Shown here piece after piece: positions 612-20,000 of a stretch of DNA of 20,000 nucleotides. Source of the stretch: Balamuthia mandrillaris (taxonomy: Eukaryota); assembly GCA_031835245.2 (NCBI GenBank), contig JAVKOQ020000029.1:304561-324560 (forward strand), in the 5' to 3' direction. Within the stretch, counting starts at the first letter, position 1, and the number at the start of each line of letters is the position of its first letter. A model generated the notes under the pieces. That model had not been told where the DNA came from. It saw only the letters and a list, made by a program, of their open reading frames with translations, and made no database searches. Both the position numbers and the translations under genes were made by a program.

Positions 612-1812
612 ATGGTGGATATCATCACACGGAAAAACAGAACCATGTAAGTAAAACCATCCAATCTTCTCTCTCCTTTGCTCTCTCTCCTCTTTCTCTG
701 TATCTACCTACCCCTTCATCAGCTACGCGTTAGCCGCACTATCCGTATTCTTTTGTGTGCTTTGGTTGCGGAGCTCACGTTCTTCAACTACTTACACTGT
801 TATCCGCTATGAAACAGCCCCGACGCCACAACCTACTTCCCAATATCCCTACATGAATAGTAATAACAAGTTCAAGCGAAGGGACCAGGCTGACCCCTCC
901 CCTCTTTCAATCGACCCAACAACTGCCCCCCTCAGCGACCAGTGCATAATCTTTTGGCACGTTACCAAAACCGGGGGAACAACTCTCCGGCATATCCTCC
1001 TTCGTGAAGCCACAGCCAGAGGACGCACCGTGGAACACATGGACGAGTTTGTCACCCTTCCAGGGGACATAACTTTTGGCCACGTGGCTCCAGGCCGTAT
1101 CATCCAACTACTAGAAAACGGCCGGGCAGAGGAGCGTCGGCTCAAGGGAGGAAAACAATGCTACTGGTTGACAAGCAACCGTGACCCTTTAGAGCGTTTT
1201 ATCTCCCGGTTCTACTTTCGCAGGGAGTGGGGACCCTCTTTGGAGGACTTTGTGCGAAGCGGGGATCCAGCCCTCCGCACCTTTCCCATCTTTAACAACC
1301 GCAACCTGCTGGATCGCACGCTCAACCTCCTCGACGAGTTTGACCTCATCCTTTTGTCAGAACGCTTCGATGAGTCGTTGATACTTCTGGTTGAGGAGGA
1401 CCACGTCCTTTCCCACAACGCCCTCAACTACACTAGCTACGGCGTCATCCAAGGGCGCCCCAAACAGGACGACTTGCCACCCGACGTGCGTGCTCGGCTA
1501 CGTGAGCTGCTGGCCCTGGACCTGCGTTACTTTGAGGCCACGCAGCGGCATTTGGAGCGGCGGATAGAGCGGTTCGGGGTGGAGCGGATGCGGGAGAGGC
1601 TAGAGGACCTGCAACGGTGGAGAGGGGAACCGCCTTGCGCCAAGCCCAGGGAGGCACTGGTCAATGGCTCTGGCGCCTGCAAGAACTTTGGCTACATTGC
1701 CAAGCAGTTGCAGAAGCAAGCGAGGGTGGTCCAAGTCGTAGCTGTGCCCATCAAGCAGATGGTGTGGGTTAGTGTTGAAGCTCCCAAGAGGAAACAAAAT
1801 GGGATAAAATGA
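612..1812 (+). CDS. Golgi-type type II membrane sulfotransferase (Gal-3-O-/Sulfotransfer_2-like), 2 exons: 612-646, 723-1812
   Basis: Intron 647-722 (GTAAGT...pyrimidine tract...CAG) joins in frame to give MVDIITRKNRTIYALAALSVFFCVLWLRS, a short cytosolic tail plus TM anchor. PAPS-binding motifs are present: 5'-PSB FWHVTKTGGTTL and 3'-PB RDPLERFISRFYF, followed by ERFDESL and LDLRYF. Confidence 0.85.
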
Positions 1813-1884
1813 AAGAAGAAAGGAAGCGGTGGTAACGTTTGTTTGTTTTCTGTTTTTTTCGTTGCCCTCTTGGAGAGAAGAGAA

Positions 1885-3317
1885 ATGCAAGAAGCGCAGC
1901 AAGTGGAGGCACAAACGGGTGGGGTGGAGAGGTCCATAGTTCGTTTGGTTTGTTCGTGTCTTCGTCATTTTTTCTTCTTGAAAGAAAAGAACAACAACCA
2001 GCAGAAGCACAGAGAGAAGAAAGCGGTTGGAGCGTAAAAGAAATAGGGGACGGCAACCTCAACTTTGTTTATGTTGTCACTCGTCGCTCCCAAGATGGCC
2101 AGCAACAACAACAGGAGCGCAGCCTCGTCGTCAAGCAAGCGGTCCCTTATGTGCGAATGGTCGGCGAGAGTTGGCCTCTCTCCCCCGAACGGGCGTTCTT
2201 CGAGCATGAAGCACTGCGAGAGCAGCATCGACACGCTCCCGAGCACGTCCCTCGAGTCTTTCATTTCTTCCCTGGCCCTCACCATGCCACCGTCATGGAG
2301 TACCTTCCAAACGCCTCCTACCGTTCATTGCGTAAATCTTTGATTCGGGCACGAAAGCATCCAGCATTGGCTCCACACATGGCTCGTTTTCTCGCTCGCT
2401 CTTTGTTCTTCACGAGCGCTTTGTGTGAAGCGAATCGACAGCAAAACGATCGGTTGAGAGACATCTTTAACGGTAATCAACTCTATCGACTGACCCAAGC
2501 GGTCATCTTTGAGGAACCCTTCACACGAAACCACAAGAACAACCGATGGACGTCACATCCGCTGCTGGACGAGGAAGTGGCGAGCATCCAAGCCAACGCT
2601 GCCCTCCTTCGGCGCGTGGAAGAGGCCAAGACAACATTTCTGACCCACAAAGAAGCTTTGCTTCATGCCGATCTTCACACCGGATCCGTTCTAGTGGGAG
2701 AAGGTGGCGGAGAAACCAAAGTGCTTGACCCAGAGTTTGCTTTCTTCGGACCTATTGCTTTTGATGTTGGCCAGTTTGTTGGCAACTTGCTTCTCGCTGT
2801 ATACAGTCAGCGTGGCCTCGTTGAGAAGGAAGAGGAAGAGGAGAAAAGAAAGGATATGGAAGAATGGATCCTGACCGCCATCGAAGAACTATGGGACCGG
2901 TTTCTTGCTCTCTTTCGTGACTTGGTGGAACAGCACTCTTCCTACGGCTTGCTCTCTTTACCTTTGCATGAAGAGAAAGCTGGCGTGAAAGAAGGAAAAG
3001 AAGAGGAAGAAAGGATTTGGGAAGCCTTCACGACGCAGTTGCTGAAGGATGTGTTGGCGTTTAGCGGGGTGGTCATGATCAGACGGATTGTTGGCATTGC
3101 GCATGCGGAGGACATGGAGGTCATTCAACGGGTGGAGAGAAAGGTTGCCTGCGAGAGAAGAGCGCTTCGTATGGCTCAGCAGTTGATCCTCGCATCTCCT
3201 CCTTTTGACGAGAAGGAGAAGATAGAGGAGCAACAAGGCACAGGAGGAGGAGCGTCTATGCGTGATGTGCTGATGGATGTTAGACGTTCTCTTCTGTTGG
3301 AGGATGAAGCTGACTGA
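1885..3317 (+). CDS. mtnK: S-methyl-5-thioribose kinase (methionine salvage)
   Basis: Motifs EIGDGNLNFVY, VKQAVPYVRMVGESWPL, ALLHADLHTGSV, DPEFAFFGPIAFDVG and IRRIVGIAHAED. The start is uncertain: probably ATG 1885 with a short intron somewhere in ~1919-2004, since the ORF-track start at 1839 lies in UTR/intron-like sequence. Confidence 0.92.
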
Positions 3318-3334
3318 AAAAAAAAGAAAAAGAA

Positions 3335-3349
3335 AAAGGCGGTGTTCTG
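3335..3349. repeat. 15-bp direct repeat, copy 1 (AAAGGCGGTGTTCTG), at the 3' flank of the Fanzor remnant; putative guide position
   Basis: Exact match to 3866-3880. Confidence 0.95.
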
Positions 3350-3530
3350 ATGGATTAAAAGTCACACAAGTGAGTAAACTCACAAAATGAAAGTTCTTGC
3401 GAGGATGTGGTGATGGGGTGGACTAGTGGGCTTCAGAAGCGCCCATCCACTTTCCCACCAGCACGCCCCCATTGGCTCCATCGGGCAACGCTGCGCAACA
3501 GAGGCTCCGGAGGAGTATGTTGCGCGCTCC
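3335..3530 (-). ncRNA. Putative omegaRNA (scaffold ~3350-3530 plus guide ~3335-3349)
   Basis: Position overlaps the 3' end of the Fanzor ORF and reaches the element end. Inverted repeats: GCGCAACA 3493-3500/TGTTGCGC 3518-3525; GTGGA 3418-3422/TCCAC 3446-3450 enclosing TGGGC 3427-3431/GCCCA 3441-3445; ATGGGG 3413-3418/CCCCAT 3467-3472; GTGAG-TAAA-CTCAC 3370-3383. Boundaries are inferred. Confidence 0.55.
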
Positions 3531-3865
3531 ATTTATGTCGCGATCCAGTCGTATCCCACAGTCCCTGTGTTTGCACTCGAAGATCCGCTCTCGTCGATTG
3601 TGTTGTTTCTGTTCGTGGGTCACACGGAGGCACCAGGTGCAAGTCTTACTGGTCCAAGCCTCCGATCGAACGTAGACCCTGGGCCCCATTCCCTCGCCTT
3701 GTGCATCAGCCACTGGCGGAATCGGTAATGGCCCCAGGAGTAGAGCATCCTGGCCGTCTTTTTGCCGATCTTCCTCCGCCGTCTCCCCCGGATGGCAGTC
3801 ATGCCCTTTACACCAAAGGTGGGGATGATGACATGATCGTAGCGGCGGCACAGGAAGAGGGCCGT
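3350..3865 (-). mobile_element. 5'-truncated Fanzor2/IS607-TnpB-like insertion (516 bp) bounded by a 15-bp direct repeat
   Basis: Sequence between the two repeats is visibly more GC-rich than the A/T-rich flanks. TnpB/Fanzor similarity begins at the junction (TALFLC...), and the other end is a structured non-coding segment. Confidence 0.85.
3423..3865 (-). pseudogene. Fanzor2/TnpB RNA-guided endonuclease C-terminal remnant with one frameshift
   Basis: Frame A: TALFLCRRYDHVIIPTFGVKGM...RKIGKKTARMLYSWGHYRFRQWLMHKAREWG. A 1-nt frameshift at ~3681-3688 leads to frame B: RVYVRSEAWTSKTCTWC...FECKHRDCGIRLDRDINGARNILLRSL. These show Pro at the canonical RuvC-II position, the relocated Glu (EAWTSK), a zinc finger and RuvC-III DRDxNGARN. 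There is no RuvC-I, WED/REC region or start codon. Confidence 0.9.
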
Positions 3866-3880
3866 AAAGGCGGTGTTCTG
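3866..3880. repeat. 15-bp direct repeat, copy 2 (AAAGGCGGTGTTCTG), at the 5'-truncation junction
   Basis: Exact match to 3335-3349. Confidence 0.95.
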
Positions 3881-4027
3881 CAAAAGAAACGCTAGGTGTT
3901 TTGCATGCCAAAGAAGAGAAACAAGGAAAGAGCAGAGGGAGAGAACGAAATGAAAGGCGTTCCTTTTAACAGTTTTTGTTGGTTTTATAAGGGTTTGTGT
4001 TGTTGACTATAAGAAAGAGAGAGAGTT

Positions 4028-7000
4028 TCACGATGTAGAGGAAGAAGCAGAAGCAGATAAAGAGGAAGGCCCAACTGTAACTTTCCGTCTCTTCCGATCA
4101 AAGCTTTTGTGAATGACCTTTGAGTGTTTAAGATAAGGATCCTTCAGAAATAGAAACTCGAGGTCTTTGAGGTTAATCGTCCGACCGGTTTGTTGTTGCT
4201 GCGGACCAAGCGCTCGTCCTCTTGCTCCTCCCACCGTTGTGCCCGCAGCAGCAGAAGCAGGAAGATGTGATAACACAACGCCACTGCCACCAGCGGCAGC
4301 TGCTTTAGCGCTGGCTTTTTGTCGTTGCACCTGTTCTGTCATTCTTCGGAACATCAGCGCAAGTCTCTCAAACTCTTGAGCCATCTCAGGGGTGAGAGTG
4401 CCGGCTTGCTTGGCTTGCTGTAGTTGTTGAAGTTTTCGCAAGTGTTCTTTCGTGAATGTGATTTGCGGTTGTTGTGATTGTTGTTGTTGTGATGATGGTG
4501 ATGACGGGGGTGGGGGTTGGTTTTGTTGTTGTGGCTGAGAAGAAGGAAGATGACTTGTTGTGGCAGGGGTGGTTGTAGAAGCGGTGGGTCTTGTGCGAGG
4601 GCGGCCAATGTCGCCGATAGCTTGAAGGGCGGTTATGTTGGCGTGTCTGGTCCGAATCCTTTCTTCTTCTTCGTGGCGTCTTGCTTGTGTTTCCCGATCT
4701 CCTCCTTTCTTGCTGCTATCATCCTGTTTATTTATAGTCAGTTTCTCTCCATCTAATTTGAAAGTGAGAATAGCTAAAGTAACCTTTAATCCTTTTAGTT
4801 TTTCTTTTTCTTCAGCGTCTCTTTGCTCTTGTTCTTCCCGTTCTCTCTTTTCTATGAGTTGCAATTGTCGCCGTGGATCTGATGTGATGGTTATCTTAAA
4901 GTCATCCTTCAACGTATCCTGCCGCTGCTGAGAAATGATGGCGAGCTGTTCGATGATATTCCGTAAACGTTCCTCCACAGCACAGGTTAAATGATCGTAC
5001 ACTTCTTTATGAATTTGTTTCATTTGATGTATGCTTGCTGTTATTGATAAAGAGATAAATAAAATGGTGAGAAAACGCACTCACTGATGAAATGCAAAAC
5101 AGAAAAAAGAAAAATAAGGATCGATCGTAGTCAGACTGACGTGCAATTTCTCATCATAAAGATGCAGAGAAGCGATACTTTGTGTGTCATCATAAAGGAT
5201 GCAAGAAGGAGAACATGAAAAAGAGGGAAGATACCAATTTCTACAACTTTTCTCCGTAAAGCCTCTCGTTGCAAAAAGGGACCTCGCGGGTCTTCTTCTG
5301 GCCACACAAGATCCATTCCCGAGTCCTTCCCCTCCCCACGCATAAATCGAAGGGACTCTTCCTTGAGATTGACACCAGCAAACTGCGTTACATCGTTCAG
5401 CTGTTTTAACGAAGTGGGTTGATCGGCATCTGCTTTTTTGCTCTCAGCTCCAGTCTTTTTGGCTTTGGCAGCGCTTTGTGTTGGTGCTCCTCCGCTAAGA
5501 ATAAAAGAAAAAGCGAGTTAACAAAAAAGCTTTTGTAAAGCTGGCAGGTGGTCACTACCTTGAACTCAAATTATTCGCAGGAGGAGGTGGAGGCGGTTGT
5601 GTGAGTTGTTGTGAAGGTGTAGAAGCGGTTGAGCCAGTCGTGGGTGTTGTGCGTGGTTTTTTACTAATGGTGAATAAAAAGTAAATAACATAAACAAACC
5701 ATAACAGCATTAGACGTTTGTGGGAGTTCAAAGGCTGGATAACAAAGATAAAAGAACGGAGGGAGGGAGTCATACGCTGGAGGCTGTTTGATATCGGTGA
5801 TAATAGGAGGATTAGAGACGTTGGGTGTTGGAGTGTTGACAGTAGAGGAGGCGGTAGAAGGAGGTGGATGGATGGTTCCTCGTTTGACCATCCGAACGAT
5901 GGGCTGCTGTTTATTTTGTTCATCGACGACGTTCGCAAAGGCTTGTGTGGGCGGCCGGCCCTGTTGATGTGATGGTTGCTGTGGTGGTTGTTGTTGCGGA
6001 ATGGTAGTGCCTTGGGTAAGTTTGTAGGACGTTTGTGGAGGTGGTTGTTGCGGATGATGTTGTGGGTGCTGGGCGATAACGAGGAGAAATGGGCGAAAGA
6101 ACGAAAGAAAAATGAGACAGAAACTGGCAACAATACAAGAAGAGAATTACGTACGGTGGCAGAGGAAGGGGTAGTAGTGTGTGGAGGGGCCTGAGTGGAG
6201 ACAACACGGCTCTGTTGCGGGGCTCTTGGCTTGGAAAACTTTTTAATGAGCTCCATAGCAGTGGCAGGTCCAAGTGAGGCGCTCAGCTTATGCGTGAACT
6301 GCTCTTTGGTTATCTTTCCTGCCTATTAAACATTCATCGGAGTCAGAATAACAAAACGTCATCATTTCTGAAGACGGAAGCGAACGAGACAAGAAGGAAC
6401 ACTTTACCTGCAACTCACTCAAAAGATGTCTAAGCACGTCTTGGTAGTGTTGAGTCACTGATTGTGTCGTATGAGCAGTCAGAGGAGGAGGGGCTCCTCC
6501 TGGAGGAACGCCAGTGGCAACAGAAGGAGCAGGAGAAGAAGAGGGTGGCAGAGCAGTAACATGCGGCCGATGAGCGAGTGCAGCGCTTCTAGCAGCCGCT
6601 GCAGCTGCTGCACTGGCCGCGTTGGTGGTAGTAGCTGTCGAGTAAGAGGAGACACCGGAAGGAGCAGTTGATGTTGCAGAGGAGGTTACGGGCATGCCTG
6701 TAGAATGGAAGTTTGTGGTGGTGGCTGGTCGCTGATGAGAGAGTTGAGCAGCAGTTGTGTGTTGTGGATTAAGATTCGTAGCAGCGGGTGACATTGTTGT
6801 GGCTCTGTGTGCAGTAGCAGTGTAAGAAGGGGGAAGACCGACGCGTTGTTGTGTAGCAGTGGCCAGGGGTTGTTGTTGTGGCGGCCGTGCTTGTTGTGTT
6901 GTTTGCTGTGGCGTCAGAGAGGTTGGTGGTTGTCTTGGTGGTGCCACGTTTCGGCTTTGCACGGTCTCCTTCTGCAGCGACTCCGCCAAGAGGTTGATCT

Positions 7001-7457: not shown

Positions 7458-8882
7458 TCACCAAAACAACATGGGGGTGGAAGCAGCAGAGGACTGTTCC
7501 TCCGGGGCCTCTCCTTCCTGACCTTCCGCCAACCTGGCCCCGCTGGGCGCGGAGGTGGTCAAGCAGGCCGTCCTGGCGGAGACTCGGAAGGTGTACTGGC
7601 ACATCTGGGAGACAGCCACGGAGGGGAAGGCCGTGGCACGGCTGTTCACCGAGGCCGCCATGATGTTGCTGCTGTGCCTGGCTCCGAAGTTGTGGCCGAT
7701 CTCGTGGGCGGGGATGACCCAGCGAGCATTGCCGCCCATGTAGCCGGTGATGCCGCAGCCGCGGGTGGAGTAGAGGCAGATGGCGCCGTAGTAGGCCCTT
7801 CCCGCCACGCCGCTGCGGTCGGGCAGGCAGCCGGAGAGCAGGTGCCAGAGACCGATGGAGCGGTCTCCCTGGCGGGTCCTCCAGGAGCAGAAAGGAGAGA
7901 GACGGGACTGGACGTCGGAGGGGCAGCTGGCGGTGTTGAAGCCGAGGGAGGAGGCGGAGGAGTGGATGAGGAGGGACTTGATGACGGGCTTGTTGCGCAC
8001 GGCGGAGTAGTACTTGGACTGGAGGGTGTTGAAGACGTAGGAGATGGTGTTGCGGGCACCGGAGGAGCCGCCGGCCTTGCGGACGTACTGGTTGTCCGTG
8101 GCCACGCCCATTTGCAGGTAGGTGCTGCTGCGAGGGGGGCAGCTGCTGGTGGGAGAGGCATCGGCAAAGTCCTGGTTGTCCTCCTCTTCCTCCTCGTCCA
8201 CGGCCACGTCCTCATCGTCAGGAGTGCCACAGGAGAGGTTGGCTTGTTGCTCTTCCTCCTCCTCTTGTTGGCGGGCGCTCTGCTGGACGTTGTGCAACAT
8301 GTTGTTGAGGTCGTGGAGGTTCTCCTTGAAGACCACCATGTGGTTGCCCAGCATGTCGTGGAGCTCGTTGTCAAAGCTCCTCTTGAAGAGGGTGGGGTGG
8401 AGGTAGGTGGGCTCCACCACGAAGCTCTCCCCGGACTCCTCGTTGTTGATGCTCATGTGGAAGATGCCTTGCTCCTCATCCACCAAGACAGCGGAGACCA
8501 TGGCCTTGTCCTTGCCGTCGATCAGGGCCTCTCCCAAGTAGGCGTTGCTCCTCGGGGGGAAGCTCTGCACCAACTCGTCATCCTCGAACTCGGAGATGAG
8601 AGCATCGTCGGCAAAGAGCTCGGCATTGTGGTGCAAGGAGGCGGAGAACTGGCGGTCCAGAGCGCGGAAGGAGAGGGTCATGGAATGATGGCTGTTGAAG
8701 GTGGCATCCCCCACGGTCCTGCGTTGGACGGAGGTCTGGTCCTCCGGATGGTGGATGGTGAAGGAGATGGTGGAGAGCAACTCCCTTCTCTCAGGCAGGG
8801 ATTGGGAGCGAGCTGCAGAGAGAGAGATTCCTTTGATGAGAATGACAGAACAGACGGACATGCACTGCGTGGAAGGGAGAGG

Positions 8883-8937
<55 letters not shown>

Positions 8938-9048
8938 GGAGAAAGAAAACGGACCAACAATGTCAGCAAAGTCAGCAGAGCCGAAGGCCAAGGTGGCACA
9001 ACAGGCAAAGAAGAGCACTGCCAAGAGGGCGGTTTGTTTGGTCGTCAT
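7458..9048 (-). CDS. Secreted zinc metalloprotease, metzincin reprolysin/M12B-like, 2 exons: 9048-8955, 8812-7458
   Basis: Signal peptide MTTKQTALLAVLFFACCATLAFG. Intron 8954-8813 (GTCCGT...CTGCAG) splices in frame. The prodomain has a Cys-switch-like LSCGT and an acidic linker, followed by LQMGVATD, GVAGRAYYGAIC, the zinc motif HEIGHNFGARH and the Met-turn NIMA. Confidence 0.88.
8888..8928. repeat. (GA)n/(TC)n microsatellite inside the metalloprotease intron
   Basis: About 20 consecutive GA units. Confidence 0.95.
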
Positions 9049-9152: not shown

Positions 9153-9903
9153 GGCGTGGGAGGGAGCATCCGGTTCCCCATGCATTCACCAGATAACAGG
9201 AATGCAAGGGAGGAGTGGGGACGGAAGGACAGGTTTGGCAAGGACCAAACGAGGACGAAGGGGAAGGTGATTGGGGGGGAAAGGGCATCTGTGGATGCCG
9301 TGGCTTTCGCTTTTTGGGGTGGAACCACATCTTTTTGAAATGCGTTTGTTGCAGTTGTACTTGGTTTTACAACTTTTGTCGGGGGGGGGGGGAAGGAGGA
9401 GGCAAAGGCATGCCTGTGGTTGATGTTCAAAGGGGAAGAGGGGGAGGGATCTAGATCGGGAAGGGATGGGATTTGAAAGAGTTGACGTGGGTTGTTTGGT
9501 GTTTGGTGGCTTTGTCTGGTGGTCGGATATTTTAGGGGGGAACAGCCATTGGTGGGGAGGTTTGGTTGGTGGTGTCTGTTCATTGCTTGAAGCACCGCGG
9601 GCAACCCCCAAAAAAAAAAATAAAAAACTAAAATCTTGACAAGAATGAATGCTCCCCCTCAATGGTTGTGTCCACCGCTGCGGGAGGAGAGAGGAGAGAA
9701 TTGACACGATTGAATGCTCCGCTCAATTTTGTGTCCGCAGTGAGTGTGAGAGGAAGAGAGAAGGGAGTGAGTGAGCGCGCAAGAGACGAGAAGAAGAGAG
9801 AGCGAATTCAACTGAGCCAAGTGACACAAACGACAGGAAAATAAAAACACAACGTGTATTTTGTGATGACAACAGAAAAGAACGAGATAGGGAGCAAATG
9901 GGA

Positions 9904-19686: not shown

Positions 19687-20000
19687 ACACACGCACGCAG
19701 ACAAACAACCAACTTCTCTGCCACTTTTTGTAAACATTGAATTTATTATCATTAGCACACAACGAATCCTTCTTTGACAGACTTTCCTTCTCTTTCCTTT
19801 CTTCTCACTTCTTTTCGTTGCTCTCTTCTCTCTTTTCTCCTCTCTCTTCTTTCTTCTCTCTCTCCACTCTCGCAGCAGTGGACACAACCATTGAGGGGGA
19901 GCATTCATTCTTGTCAAGCTTTTATTTTTTTAATTGGGTTGGGGTGCTCCAAGCATCAAGGGGAGGGACCACAAACAGATGCAATGAACAGACACCACCA

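What the first reader, a model, noticed from the sequence alone, without database searches (positions are those of the whole stretch)
3335..3880. Truncated Fanzor2 insertion flanked by a 15-bp duplication that equals its own predicted guide/target
Seen: on the minus strand the locus reads ...TTCTTTTG-[CAGAACACCGCCTTT]-5'-truncated Fanzor ORF + structured end-[CAGAACACCGCCTTT]-TTCTTTTT. Established: TnpB/Fanzor guides are read from the DNA just 3' of the element end, and cleavage occurs toward the TAM-distal end of the target. IS607-type serine-recombinase insertion does not make long target-site duplications. Inference: target + 5'-truncated element + target is what would result if Fanzor cut the empty allele about 15 nt into the target and repair copied the element from its right end before aborting. 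That would be a footprint of RNA-guided homing in a eukaryote. An alternative is RNA-templated (TPRT-like) insertion of a Fanzor/omegaRNA transcript, which also gives 5' truncation and a ~15-bp TSD, although no poly(A) tail is present between element and repeat. Either route would be an unusual mode of Fanzor spread. The shared CAG at the start of the repeat could belong to the TAM/element end, so boundaries are uncertain by a few bp.
Basis: partly seen in the sequence, partly recalled or inferred. Interest (0 to 1): 0.9.

Follow-up and report, generated by a model that had tools for sequence, protein, structure and literature searches.

The report
Aborted Fanzor homing scar in amoeba
The tail end of an RNA-guided-nuclease transposon sits in an amoeba genome between two copies of the 12 bases that its own guide RNA is predicted to target, with empty and filled versions of the site in one DNA sample, and it is likely the scar of a cut-and-copy repair that stopped short, an in-cell trace of how these nucleases would spread their transposons in eukaryotes.

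Summary
Confirmed and real. An exact 15-bp repeat (3335-3349, 3866-3880) flanks 516 bp of a 5'-truncated IS607-type Fanzor2 element; its nearest proteins are named Balamuthia mandrillaris transposases. Public DNA runs hold empty alleles with one copy of the 15-mer, and one run holds the truncated junction letter for letter beside an empty allele. Five contigs from other copies share only the element end through CAG (three also the next 2-3 bases), so the repeat is CAG plus 12 bases of host DNA, the predicted guide. Best reading (0.55): Fanzor cut the empty allele, the far end copied the element from its right end and stopped, then rejoined. RNA-templated repair (0.15) and a Fanzor-free template switch at a 6-bp microhomology (0.15) give the same product. 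No full-length allele was seen here, the TAM is unmeasured, and 0 of 3 truncated Naegleria Fanzor2 copies read show an exact duplication. The layout is not new: Bao and Jurka 2013 described it for Chlamydomonas Fanzor1-Helitrons, and Craig 2023 tentatively blamed Fanzor. New here: the same layout with a serine-recombinase element, polymorphic within one sample, which points to Fanzor as the shared cause.

The parts
3866..3880 (-). Left copy of the 15-mer: CAG core (3880-3878, end of the predicted TAM) plus first 12 nt of the predicted target (3877-3866); this is the one copy kept in empty alleles
   Evidence: empty-allele contigs align from 3866
3423..3865 (-). 5'-truncated Fanzor2 ORF, residues 340-486 of P0001; lacks HTH, REC and RuvC-I Asp265, keeps Glu408, zinc finger and Asp449; stop at 3425-3423; one base missing at 3682/3683, probably a consensus error
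   Evidence: for the missing base
3347..3460 (-). Predicted omegaRNA scaffold and element right end: three stem-loops, ending CAG at 3347; loop 3438-3433 is complementary to the last 4 scaffold bases plus the next 2 (predicted pseudoknot)
   Evidence: right-end boundary from loose ends at 3347, 3345, 3344; no Rfam match
3335..3349 (-). Right copy of the 15-mer: element-end CAG (3349-3347) plus the first 12 nt of the predicted guide (3346-3335)
3865..3866 (-). 5' truncation junction; the intact ORF has CACCGC 4-9 bases upstream of it, matching target positions 3-8 (offset by one base)
   Evidence: junction contig and loose ends at 3865; chance about 0.6% for random pairs, test chosen after seeing it
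1836..3317 (+). Host kinase reading frame (PF01636 APH family; looks like methylthioribose kinase, name recalled); its stop lies 17 bases before the right repeat, so the insert is probably in its 3' UTR
4028..5080 (-). Host TAF4 reading frame, convergent with the kinase; the insert lies about 150 bases past its stop

Best explanation
A 519-bp right-end piece of an IS607-type Fanzor2 transposon lies between two copies of CAG plus 12 host bases, and it was likely made when Fanzor, guided by the RNA of an inferred full-length copy at this same site, cut an empty chromosome copy and repair copied the element from its right end but stopped early. Steps: (1, inferred) the serine recombinase inserts a full element at the CAG/AG core on one chromosome copy, with no duplication; (2, inferred from family knowledge) its omegaRNA takes the right flank as guide; (3, inferred) Fanzor cuts an empty homologue or sister 9-20 nt into the target and stays on the TAM-side end, which is trimmed to 12 nt; (4, inferred) the released far end, which alone has perfect homology to the donor, invades and copies guide, right end and 516 bp of the element; (5, inferred) synthesis aborts and the new strand is end-joined to the TAM-side end, possibly aligned by CACCGC. 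Shown: the product, the empty alleles, the right-end boundary, the intact continuation of the ORF in other copies. The remnant is dead as a nuclease but keeps a whole predicted omegaRNA and guide.
For: Exact repeat, beyond chance. Truncated junction in X2 with 0 differences; empty allele in the same run; empty alleles in X1, X12 and, on the window's own flank haplotype, apparently X4. The insert ends exactly at the common element end and the duplication starts exactly at the shared core: two coincidences that a guide-directed cut predicts. 3428-3865 is identical to contigs of a multicopy subfamily at depth 206-270, so the event is recent. IS607 elements make no TSD (Bao and Jurka). Fanzor2 cuts fall inside the target: MmeFz2 target strand 9-14 and non-target strand 17-18, NlovFz2 19/19, ApmFz2 15/18/21 and 19-20; trimming an MmeFz2-like overhang leaves 9-14 nt. 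Cas12a stays on the PAM-side product, trims it and releases the far end, which gives right-end-first polarity by analogy. Same layout in Chlamydomonas CRe-1/2/3: 7-19 bp duplications right after the target motif on 5'-truncated copies, none on full-length copies, 1 of 200 in a Fanzor-less relative.
Against: No full-length allele at this site: no loose end near 3878 among the 5 X2 rows at 96% likeness; one search showed only 24 of 102 loose ends and 32 of 357 pieces. The TAM was not determined, and since CAG is on both sides it must reach further or the donor would cut itself. 12 nt is shorter than all three published Fanzor2 non-target-strand cuts (17-20). The junction keeps CTTT in place of the element's AAG after the CACCGC match, which plain microhomology joining would not do. 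The filled allele keeps TAM plus 12 matching bases and might still be cut (guides of 11-12 nt reach a plateau for two Fanzor2s), yet it holds 57% of X2 depth. 0 of 3 5'-truncated N. lovaniensis Fanzor2 copies read by eye have an exact duplication. One locus only; no genome was held.
Confidence: 0.55

Rival explanations
1. RNA-templated repair of a Fanzor cut: the cut target strand, still paired with the guide, primes reverse transcription of a precursor transcript (ORF end, scaffold, guide) by a host enzyme, and the cDNA is joined to the TAM-side end.
For: Gives the same product with no poly(A) (longest A run in the insert is 5). Published target-strand cuts at 9-15 lie inside the guide-paired region. 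The element is transcribed at a low level in run X21 (36 reads of 12.9 million). 5' truncation is typical of reverse transcription (established knowledge).
Against: No reverse transcriptase is encoded in the paralogues scanned; 516 nt is far longer than the roughly 115-nt predicted scaffold; it needs the same allelic donor that was not seen. The remnant has no intron whose loss could be scored.
Confidence: 0.15
2. Fanzor-independent template switch or ectopic recombination between an empty and a filled allele: a fork or break on the empty allele switched into the filled allele's ORF at the CACCGC match.
For: The 6-bp match at the junction (about 0.6% by chance; 0 of 504 positions in the retained element match as well). 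X2 carries at least three haplotypes at this site, so heterozygous templates exist.
Against: It does not explain why the switch falls 12 nt past the core, inside the Fanzor cut window, nor the 7-19 bp core-anchored duplications confined to Fanzor-bearing Helitrons. The junction is not a clean crossover in the microhomology.
Confidence: 0.15
3. Faulty one-ended integration by the serine recombinase: only the right end was joined at the core and the other side was resolved by replication and end-joining.
For: The right junction is exactly at the recombinase core; the family has an intact-looking resolvase domain and differs strongly in depth between runs, which suggests recent activity. No full-length allele is needed.
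Against: Serine recombinases exchange both strands at a 2-bp core (established knowledge) and give no 12-bp stagger; the same layout occurs with an unrelated HUH transposase.
Confidence: 0.08
4. Retrocopy of a Fanzor transcript inserted by a LINE machinery at its own nick, with an ordinary 15-bp TSD.
For: 5' truncation and a 15-bp TSD next to a T-rich tract look like a LINE-type insertion.
Against: No poly(A), no donor flank; the insert stops at the element's DNA end and the TSD begins with the element's core, which a LINE nick would not arrange.
Confidence: 0.04
5. Assembly chimera of an empty allele and a full-length allele.
For: The window has at least one probable consensus error in the insert (3682); the bridging contig has 30, not 31, letters on the element side; the right junction of this allele was not among the 8 pieces shown.
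Against: A short-read contig reproduces the 5' junction with 0 differences at depth 66.5, and the 143-letter element contig ends exactly at that branch.
Confidence: 0.02

Closest known systems
CRe-1, CRe-2, CRe-3 Fanzor1-Helitron2 elements of Chlamydomonas reinhardtii (Bao and Jurka 2013, PMC3627910, section 8 read; Craig 2023, PMC10288648, passages read)
   Same: 5'-truncated, 3'-intact copies flanked by 7-19 bp duplications that start right after the target motif; full-length copies have none. Craig tentatively suggested Fanzor cleavage contributes.
   Different: Those are Fanzor1 with an HUH Helitron transposase; Bao and Jurka explained the truncation by rolling-circle copying, Craig by HUH plus Fanzor acting together at integration. 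Here the element is Fanzor2 with a serine recombinase, so no rolling-circle enzyme is available, and empty and filled alleles are seen in one run.
IS607EU / Fanzor2 elements (NlovFz2 of Naegleria lovaniensis, ApmFz2, ACa-1/2; Saito 2023 PMC10432273, Jiang 2023 PMC10530073, Yoon 2023 PMC10711439)
   Same: DPG RuvC-I motif, catalytic Glu just before the zinc finger, serine recombinase partner, 3' omegaRNA with predicted pseudoknot, short core shared by left target and right end.
   Different: Core is CAG/AG rather than GG or CG; the Balamuthia family appears in none of the papers searched (0 hits for Fanzor plus Balamuthia; 0 in the Yoon supplement); canonical copies have no TSD.
TnpB transposon restorative homing in bacteria (IS605, IS607/IStron; reviewed by Kojima 2026, PMC13565253; bioRxiv 2023.11.20.567912)
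   Same: Guide equals right flank; the nuclease cuts the empty site; recombination with a filled copy restores the element.
   Different: Shown in bacteria with complete restoration; the review lists cleavage but no homing evidence for Fanzors. This locus would be an incomplete product in a eukaryote.
Incomplete homing in engineered CRISPR drives; abortive gap repair of P and Ac/Ds elements (the latter recalled)
   Same: Repair synthesis from a homologue stops early and is end-joined; a large insertion from incomplete homing is mentioned in PMC7886172 (one passage).
   Different: Those usually keep both element ends or lack a target duplication; a TAM-distal cutter leaves target bases on the near end, hence the duplication (inference).

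Membership tests
Fanzor2 / IS607EU | RuvC with DPG motif and catalytic Glu about six residues before a C4 zinc finger, then RD | tested here: met
   P0001 has DPG at 265, Glu408 before TSKTC and Asp449; the window keeps residues 340-486 at 99-100% identity
Fanzor2 / IS607EU | Serine recombinase TnpA in the same element | tested here: met
   Paralogues P0002 and P0076 (88-92% identical to the remnant) carry PF00239 resolvase, E 3e-14 and 1e-14; P0001, the closest paralogue, shows none as annotated; the window copy has lost that end
Fanzor2 / IS607EU | No TIRs and no TSD in full-length copies; insertion at a short shared core | tested here: inconclusive
   Right ends of 5 other contigs share CAG and then diverge; left ends and their flanks could not be read
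Fanzor2 / IS607EU | omegaRNA at the right end with stem-loops and a pseudoknot to the scaffold 3' end | tested here: inconclusive
   Three stem-loops, z -2.99; loop complementary to the last bases; one sequence, no covariation test, no small-RNA data; no Rfam match
Fanzor2 / IS607EU | RNA-guided, TAM-dependent DNA cleavage | not testable with these tools
   Needs protein and RNA; inferred from relatives
Fanzor2 / IS607EU | Placement in the Fanzor2 clade on a tree | not tested
   No tree was built; similarity to N. lovaniensis Fanzor2 judged by eye
Aborted homing product | Empty allele with a single target copy | tested here: met
   X1, X12, X2, apparently X4
Aborted homing product | Duplication starts at the core and ends within the cut window; right end intact | tested here: met
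   12 nt from the core; right end at 3347; needs 5-8 nt trimming relative to published non-target-strand cuts
Aborted homing product | Full-length donor allele at the same site | tested here: inconclusive
   None seen in X2 at 96% likeness; contigs drop rare variants and one search was cut
Aborted homing product | Recurrence in other copies of the family | not testable with these tools
   No genome held; in a relative 0 of 3 truncated copies read had an exact duplication
LINE-mediated retrocopy | Poly(A) tail between insert and 3' TSD | tested here: not met
   None; longest A run 5

The most novel reading that the evidence does not exclude
Core-anchored 7-19 bp duplications around 5'-truncated Fanzor elements are a general, transposase-independent footprint of Fanzor cutting empty alleles in living eukaryotes. 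Their length would record the in vivo cut and trimming position, and the truncated allele, which keeps a whole guide RNA and now has homology to both broken ends, could itself spread to the other chromosome copies with Fanzor supplied in trans (it holds 57% of the depth in X2).
Probability: 0.4. Interest if true: 0.8.

Novelty: new variant of a known kind. Interest (0 to 1): 0.62.

Why it matters
Fanzors are known to cut DNA in vitro and in human cells, but whether they home in their own eukaryotic hosts is open: the 2026 review lists homing evidence only for bacterial TnpB and IscB. A recent, polymorphic allele with the geometry of an interrupted homing event, in an element whose transposase cannot make such duplications, ties an unexplained 2013 observation in Chlamydomonas to Fanzor itself and gives a signature that can be counted in any genome. 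It also offers a natural guide, target and empty allele for a direct test.

Tried and rejected
No whole genome was held, so copies could not be collected. No relatives in viral contigs or by protein in metagenome contigs (41 pattern hits, 0 confirmed). The right-end 20-mer gave 2 metagenome and 2 prokaryote hits; 0 of 4 extend beyond 23 bases or encode a relative: chance. No second copy in the window. No Rfam match. No RNA holder was listed as holding the stretch; RNA run X21 gave 36 reads, both orientations, none on 3881-3960, so it says nothing on this allele or on omegaRNA ends. N. lovaniensis check in Saito 2023 supplementary file 9: of 29 matches reaching the C-terminus, 4 loci with a late start were read by eye; locus 19 keeps its left end (internal deletion), loci 26 and 37 show no duplication, locus 30 has 11 of 14 matching bases without the CCG motif (ambiguous); other truncated loci were not read. 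The search for Balamuthia ploidy and retrotransposons returned only off-topic papers, so a host reverse transcriptase is neither shown nor excluded. Depth was not used as a copy number beyond saying multicopy. Earlier-finding look-ups by sequence and place were empty; e1-5312354 concerns a different case and was not used. I first suspected a consensus chimera because of the CACCGC match; one search removed most of that doubt.

Full report
Observation. On the minus strand the locus reads host flank, CAGAACACCGCCTTT, 516 bp, CAGAACACCGCCTTT, host flank. The two copies (3866-3880, 3335-3349) are exact, are the only sequence-complex repeated 15-mer in the window, and 0 of 2000 shuffles of the 900-bp region reach 15. 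The site lies between a kinase gene (stop 17 bases away) and TAF4, which converge on it.

What the insert is. The 516 bp encode the C-terminal third of a Fanzor2. Both pieces of the frame match P0001 (486 aa, named Transposase, Balamuthia mandrillaris) at 99-100% and P0002 (672 aa) at 88-92%. P0002 and P0076 carry a resolvase domain ahead of the HTH, OrfB and zinc-ribbon domains, so the family is IS607-type. The remnant starts at residue 340, after RuvC-I Asp265, so it cannot make a nuclease. Its last 114 bases fold into three stem-loops (z -2.99; 2 of 200 shuffles as good), and the first loop is complementary to the last bases of the element, as in the pseudoknot described for IS607 TnpB and Fanzor2 RNAs (Yoon 2023, passages). 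This rests on one sequence.

Alleles in public data. No genome was held; 19 of 23 listed runs hold part of the stretch. I laid 4 contig runs on 3000-4250 (24 of 102 loose ends and 32 of 357 pieces shown) and then X2 and RNA run X21 on 3335-3960 at 96% likeness (all 6 loose-end rows, 8 of 39 pieces shown). X1 and X12 each have one contig that covers both flanks with 27 letters between 3309 and 3866, against 25 expected for one copy of the repeat; the X2 loose end shows that the difference lies in the A-rich tract. X4 has a contig identical to 3866-4094 with 25 unaligned letters before it, read as an empty allele on the window's own flank haplotype (inference; the letters fall in a masked stretch). 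X2 holds the filled allele: 98 letters, 3836-3933, 0 differences, depth 66.5, with 30 letters on the element side (the tool asks 31 for a bridge). X2 also holds an empty allele (19.4) and a third, more divergent haplotype (29.9, apparently empty). The right junction of the filled allele was not displayed; 7 X2 records run over the ends of the reference and 6 are accounted for, so the seventh is probably it. Other copies continue into the intact ORF at 3865 (4 contigs in X12, 6 reads in X21). Five right-end contigs diverge from the window at 3347 (2), 3345 (2) and 3344 (1): CAG is the common end, so the duplication is core plus 12 host bases. From 3428 to 3865 the insert is identical to contigs at depth 206-270 except for one base at 3682, present in 206.1 of 206.1 of that depth; the frameshift is probably an assembly error and the insertion is recent. 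No left-end junction of a full-length element was seen near 3878.

Mechanism. IS607 elements make no TSD (Kojima 2026, passages and section 6 part 1; Bao and Jurka). Guides are the right flank, and Fanzor2 cuts fall inside the target: MmeFz2 9-14 on the target strand and 17-18 on the other, NlovFz2 19/19 (Saito 2023, passages), ApmFz2 15/18/21 and 19-20 (Jiang 2023, passages). Cas12a stays on the PAM-side product, trims it and releases the far end (PMC7054755, passages). By inference the far end, which has perfect homology to a filled allele, copies guide, right end and ORF; the near end keeps target bases that the donor lacks on that side, so an abort followed by end-joining gives core plus 12 nt, truncated element, core plus guide. 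This is the observed product. I put it at 0.55. Reverse transcription primed by the cut target strand on the guide gives the same product (0.15). A Fanzor-free template switch is kept alive by a 6-bp match between target and intact ORF just upstream of the junction (about 0.6% of 200,000 random pairs; test chosen after seeing it), although the junction keeps CTTT where the element has AAG, which is unexplained under any model (0.15). Faulty recombinase integration (0.08), a LINE retrocopy (0.04) and artefact (0.02) are weaker.

Results against. No donor allele; TAM unmeasured, with CAG on both sides; 12 nt is shorter than the published non-target-strand cuts; the filled allele may still be cleavable; and in N. 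lovaniensis, the nearest characterised relative, 0 of 3 5'-truncated copies read by eye from Saito's supplementary file 9 show an exact duplication (one has 11 of 14 matches) (5 of 68 parts read). So the layout is not how most truncated Fanzor2 copies look there.

What is known. Bao and Jurka 2013 (sections 8 and 14 read) report that Chlamydomonas CRe-1/2/3 Fanzor1-Helitrons are often 5'-truncated, 3'-intact and flanked by 7-19 bp duplications that begin right after the TTTT target motif (about 70% of 150 CRe-1 loci), while full-length copies have none and only 1 of 200 copies of a Fanzor-less Helitron has one; they left the cause open. Craig 2023 (passages) tentatively proposed that Fanzor and the HUH enzyme cut together. 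Jiang 2023 found no cleavage by that Chlamydomonas Fanzor in vitro, which weighs against the link. An earlier AI note, e1-7219758, describes a similar locus for a chytrid Fanzor1 (unchecked). My searches listed no paper on Balamuthia Fanzors, on this layout in an IS607 element, or on in vivo Fanzor homing; most listed papers were seen as titles and abstract starts only, and subscription journals are missing. Also seen as passages only and little used: bioRxiv 2023.11.20.567912, 10.64898/2026.06.23.733901, PMC7886172. Saito's first supplement was too large to read, and bioRxiv supplements are closed; either may bear on novelty.

Verdict. A real, recent, polymorphic allele with the geometry of interrupted Fanzor homing. 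New variant of a known kind: the layout is in print for another element, the mechanism is inferred, but its appearance with a serine recombinase singles out Fanzor and makes the question of eukaryotic homing directly testable. Interest 0.62.

Noticed in passing
window 3310-3883, runs X2 and X4: A third, divergent haplotype has 31 letters between 3309 and 3883 where 42 are expected and does not align over 3866-3882: the target region is changed or deleted. It could be an end-joining scar or plain divergence; the letters were not shown.
   Followed up: no
window 3347-3865: Element depth against flank depth differs widely between runs (X1 about 1100-3300 vs 47; X4 about 7-33 vs 17 over the ORF but 340-640 over the last 70 bases), which suggests strain differences in copy number and many right-end-only relatives. 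The tool warns that depth is no copy number.
   Followed up: partly
window 3427: All laid contigs and 4 of 4 RNA reads have another base here (P0001 ends in Leu, the window in His); X2 has no cover at 96% likeness. Consensus error, private change or filtered record.
   Followed up: no
window 3723-3865, run X1: The exact-match element contig also ends at 3865 in X1, where this site is empty. A silent variant at the next base or a second truncation at the same point could explain it.
   Followed up: no
window 3344-3346: 3 of 5 other right-end flanks, and this one, begin with AA after CAG, which would extend the predicted pseudoknot by two pairs: possible target preference.
   Followed up: no
protein P0076: A full resolvase-Fanzor2 element is annotated inside a RICTOR gene in the public Balamuthia proteins: an insertion into a TORC2 subunit gene or its intron.
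   Followed up: no
Saito 2023 supplementary file 9, part 40: A second N. lovaniensis Fanzor2 family has, downstream of its ORF, a 12-base stretch like window 3355-3366 near the right end; possibly a shared end motif. Seen by eye.
   Followed up: no
window 7458-9044 (-): Long GC-rich, apparently intron-free frame with an HEIGHNFG zinc-metalloprotease-like motif (motif recalled), standing out in composition (GC 0.57-0.68).
   Followed up: no
window 9618-9693 and 19860-19935: A 76-nt inverted repeat pair, 91% complementary, 10 kb apart: possibly a small dispersed element or a shared gene end.
   Followed up: no
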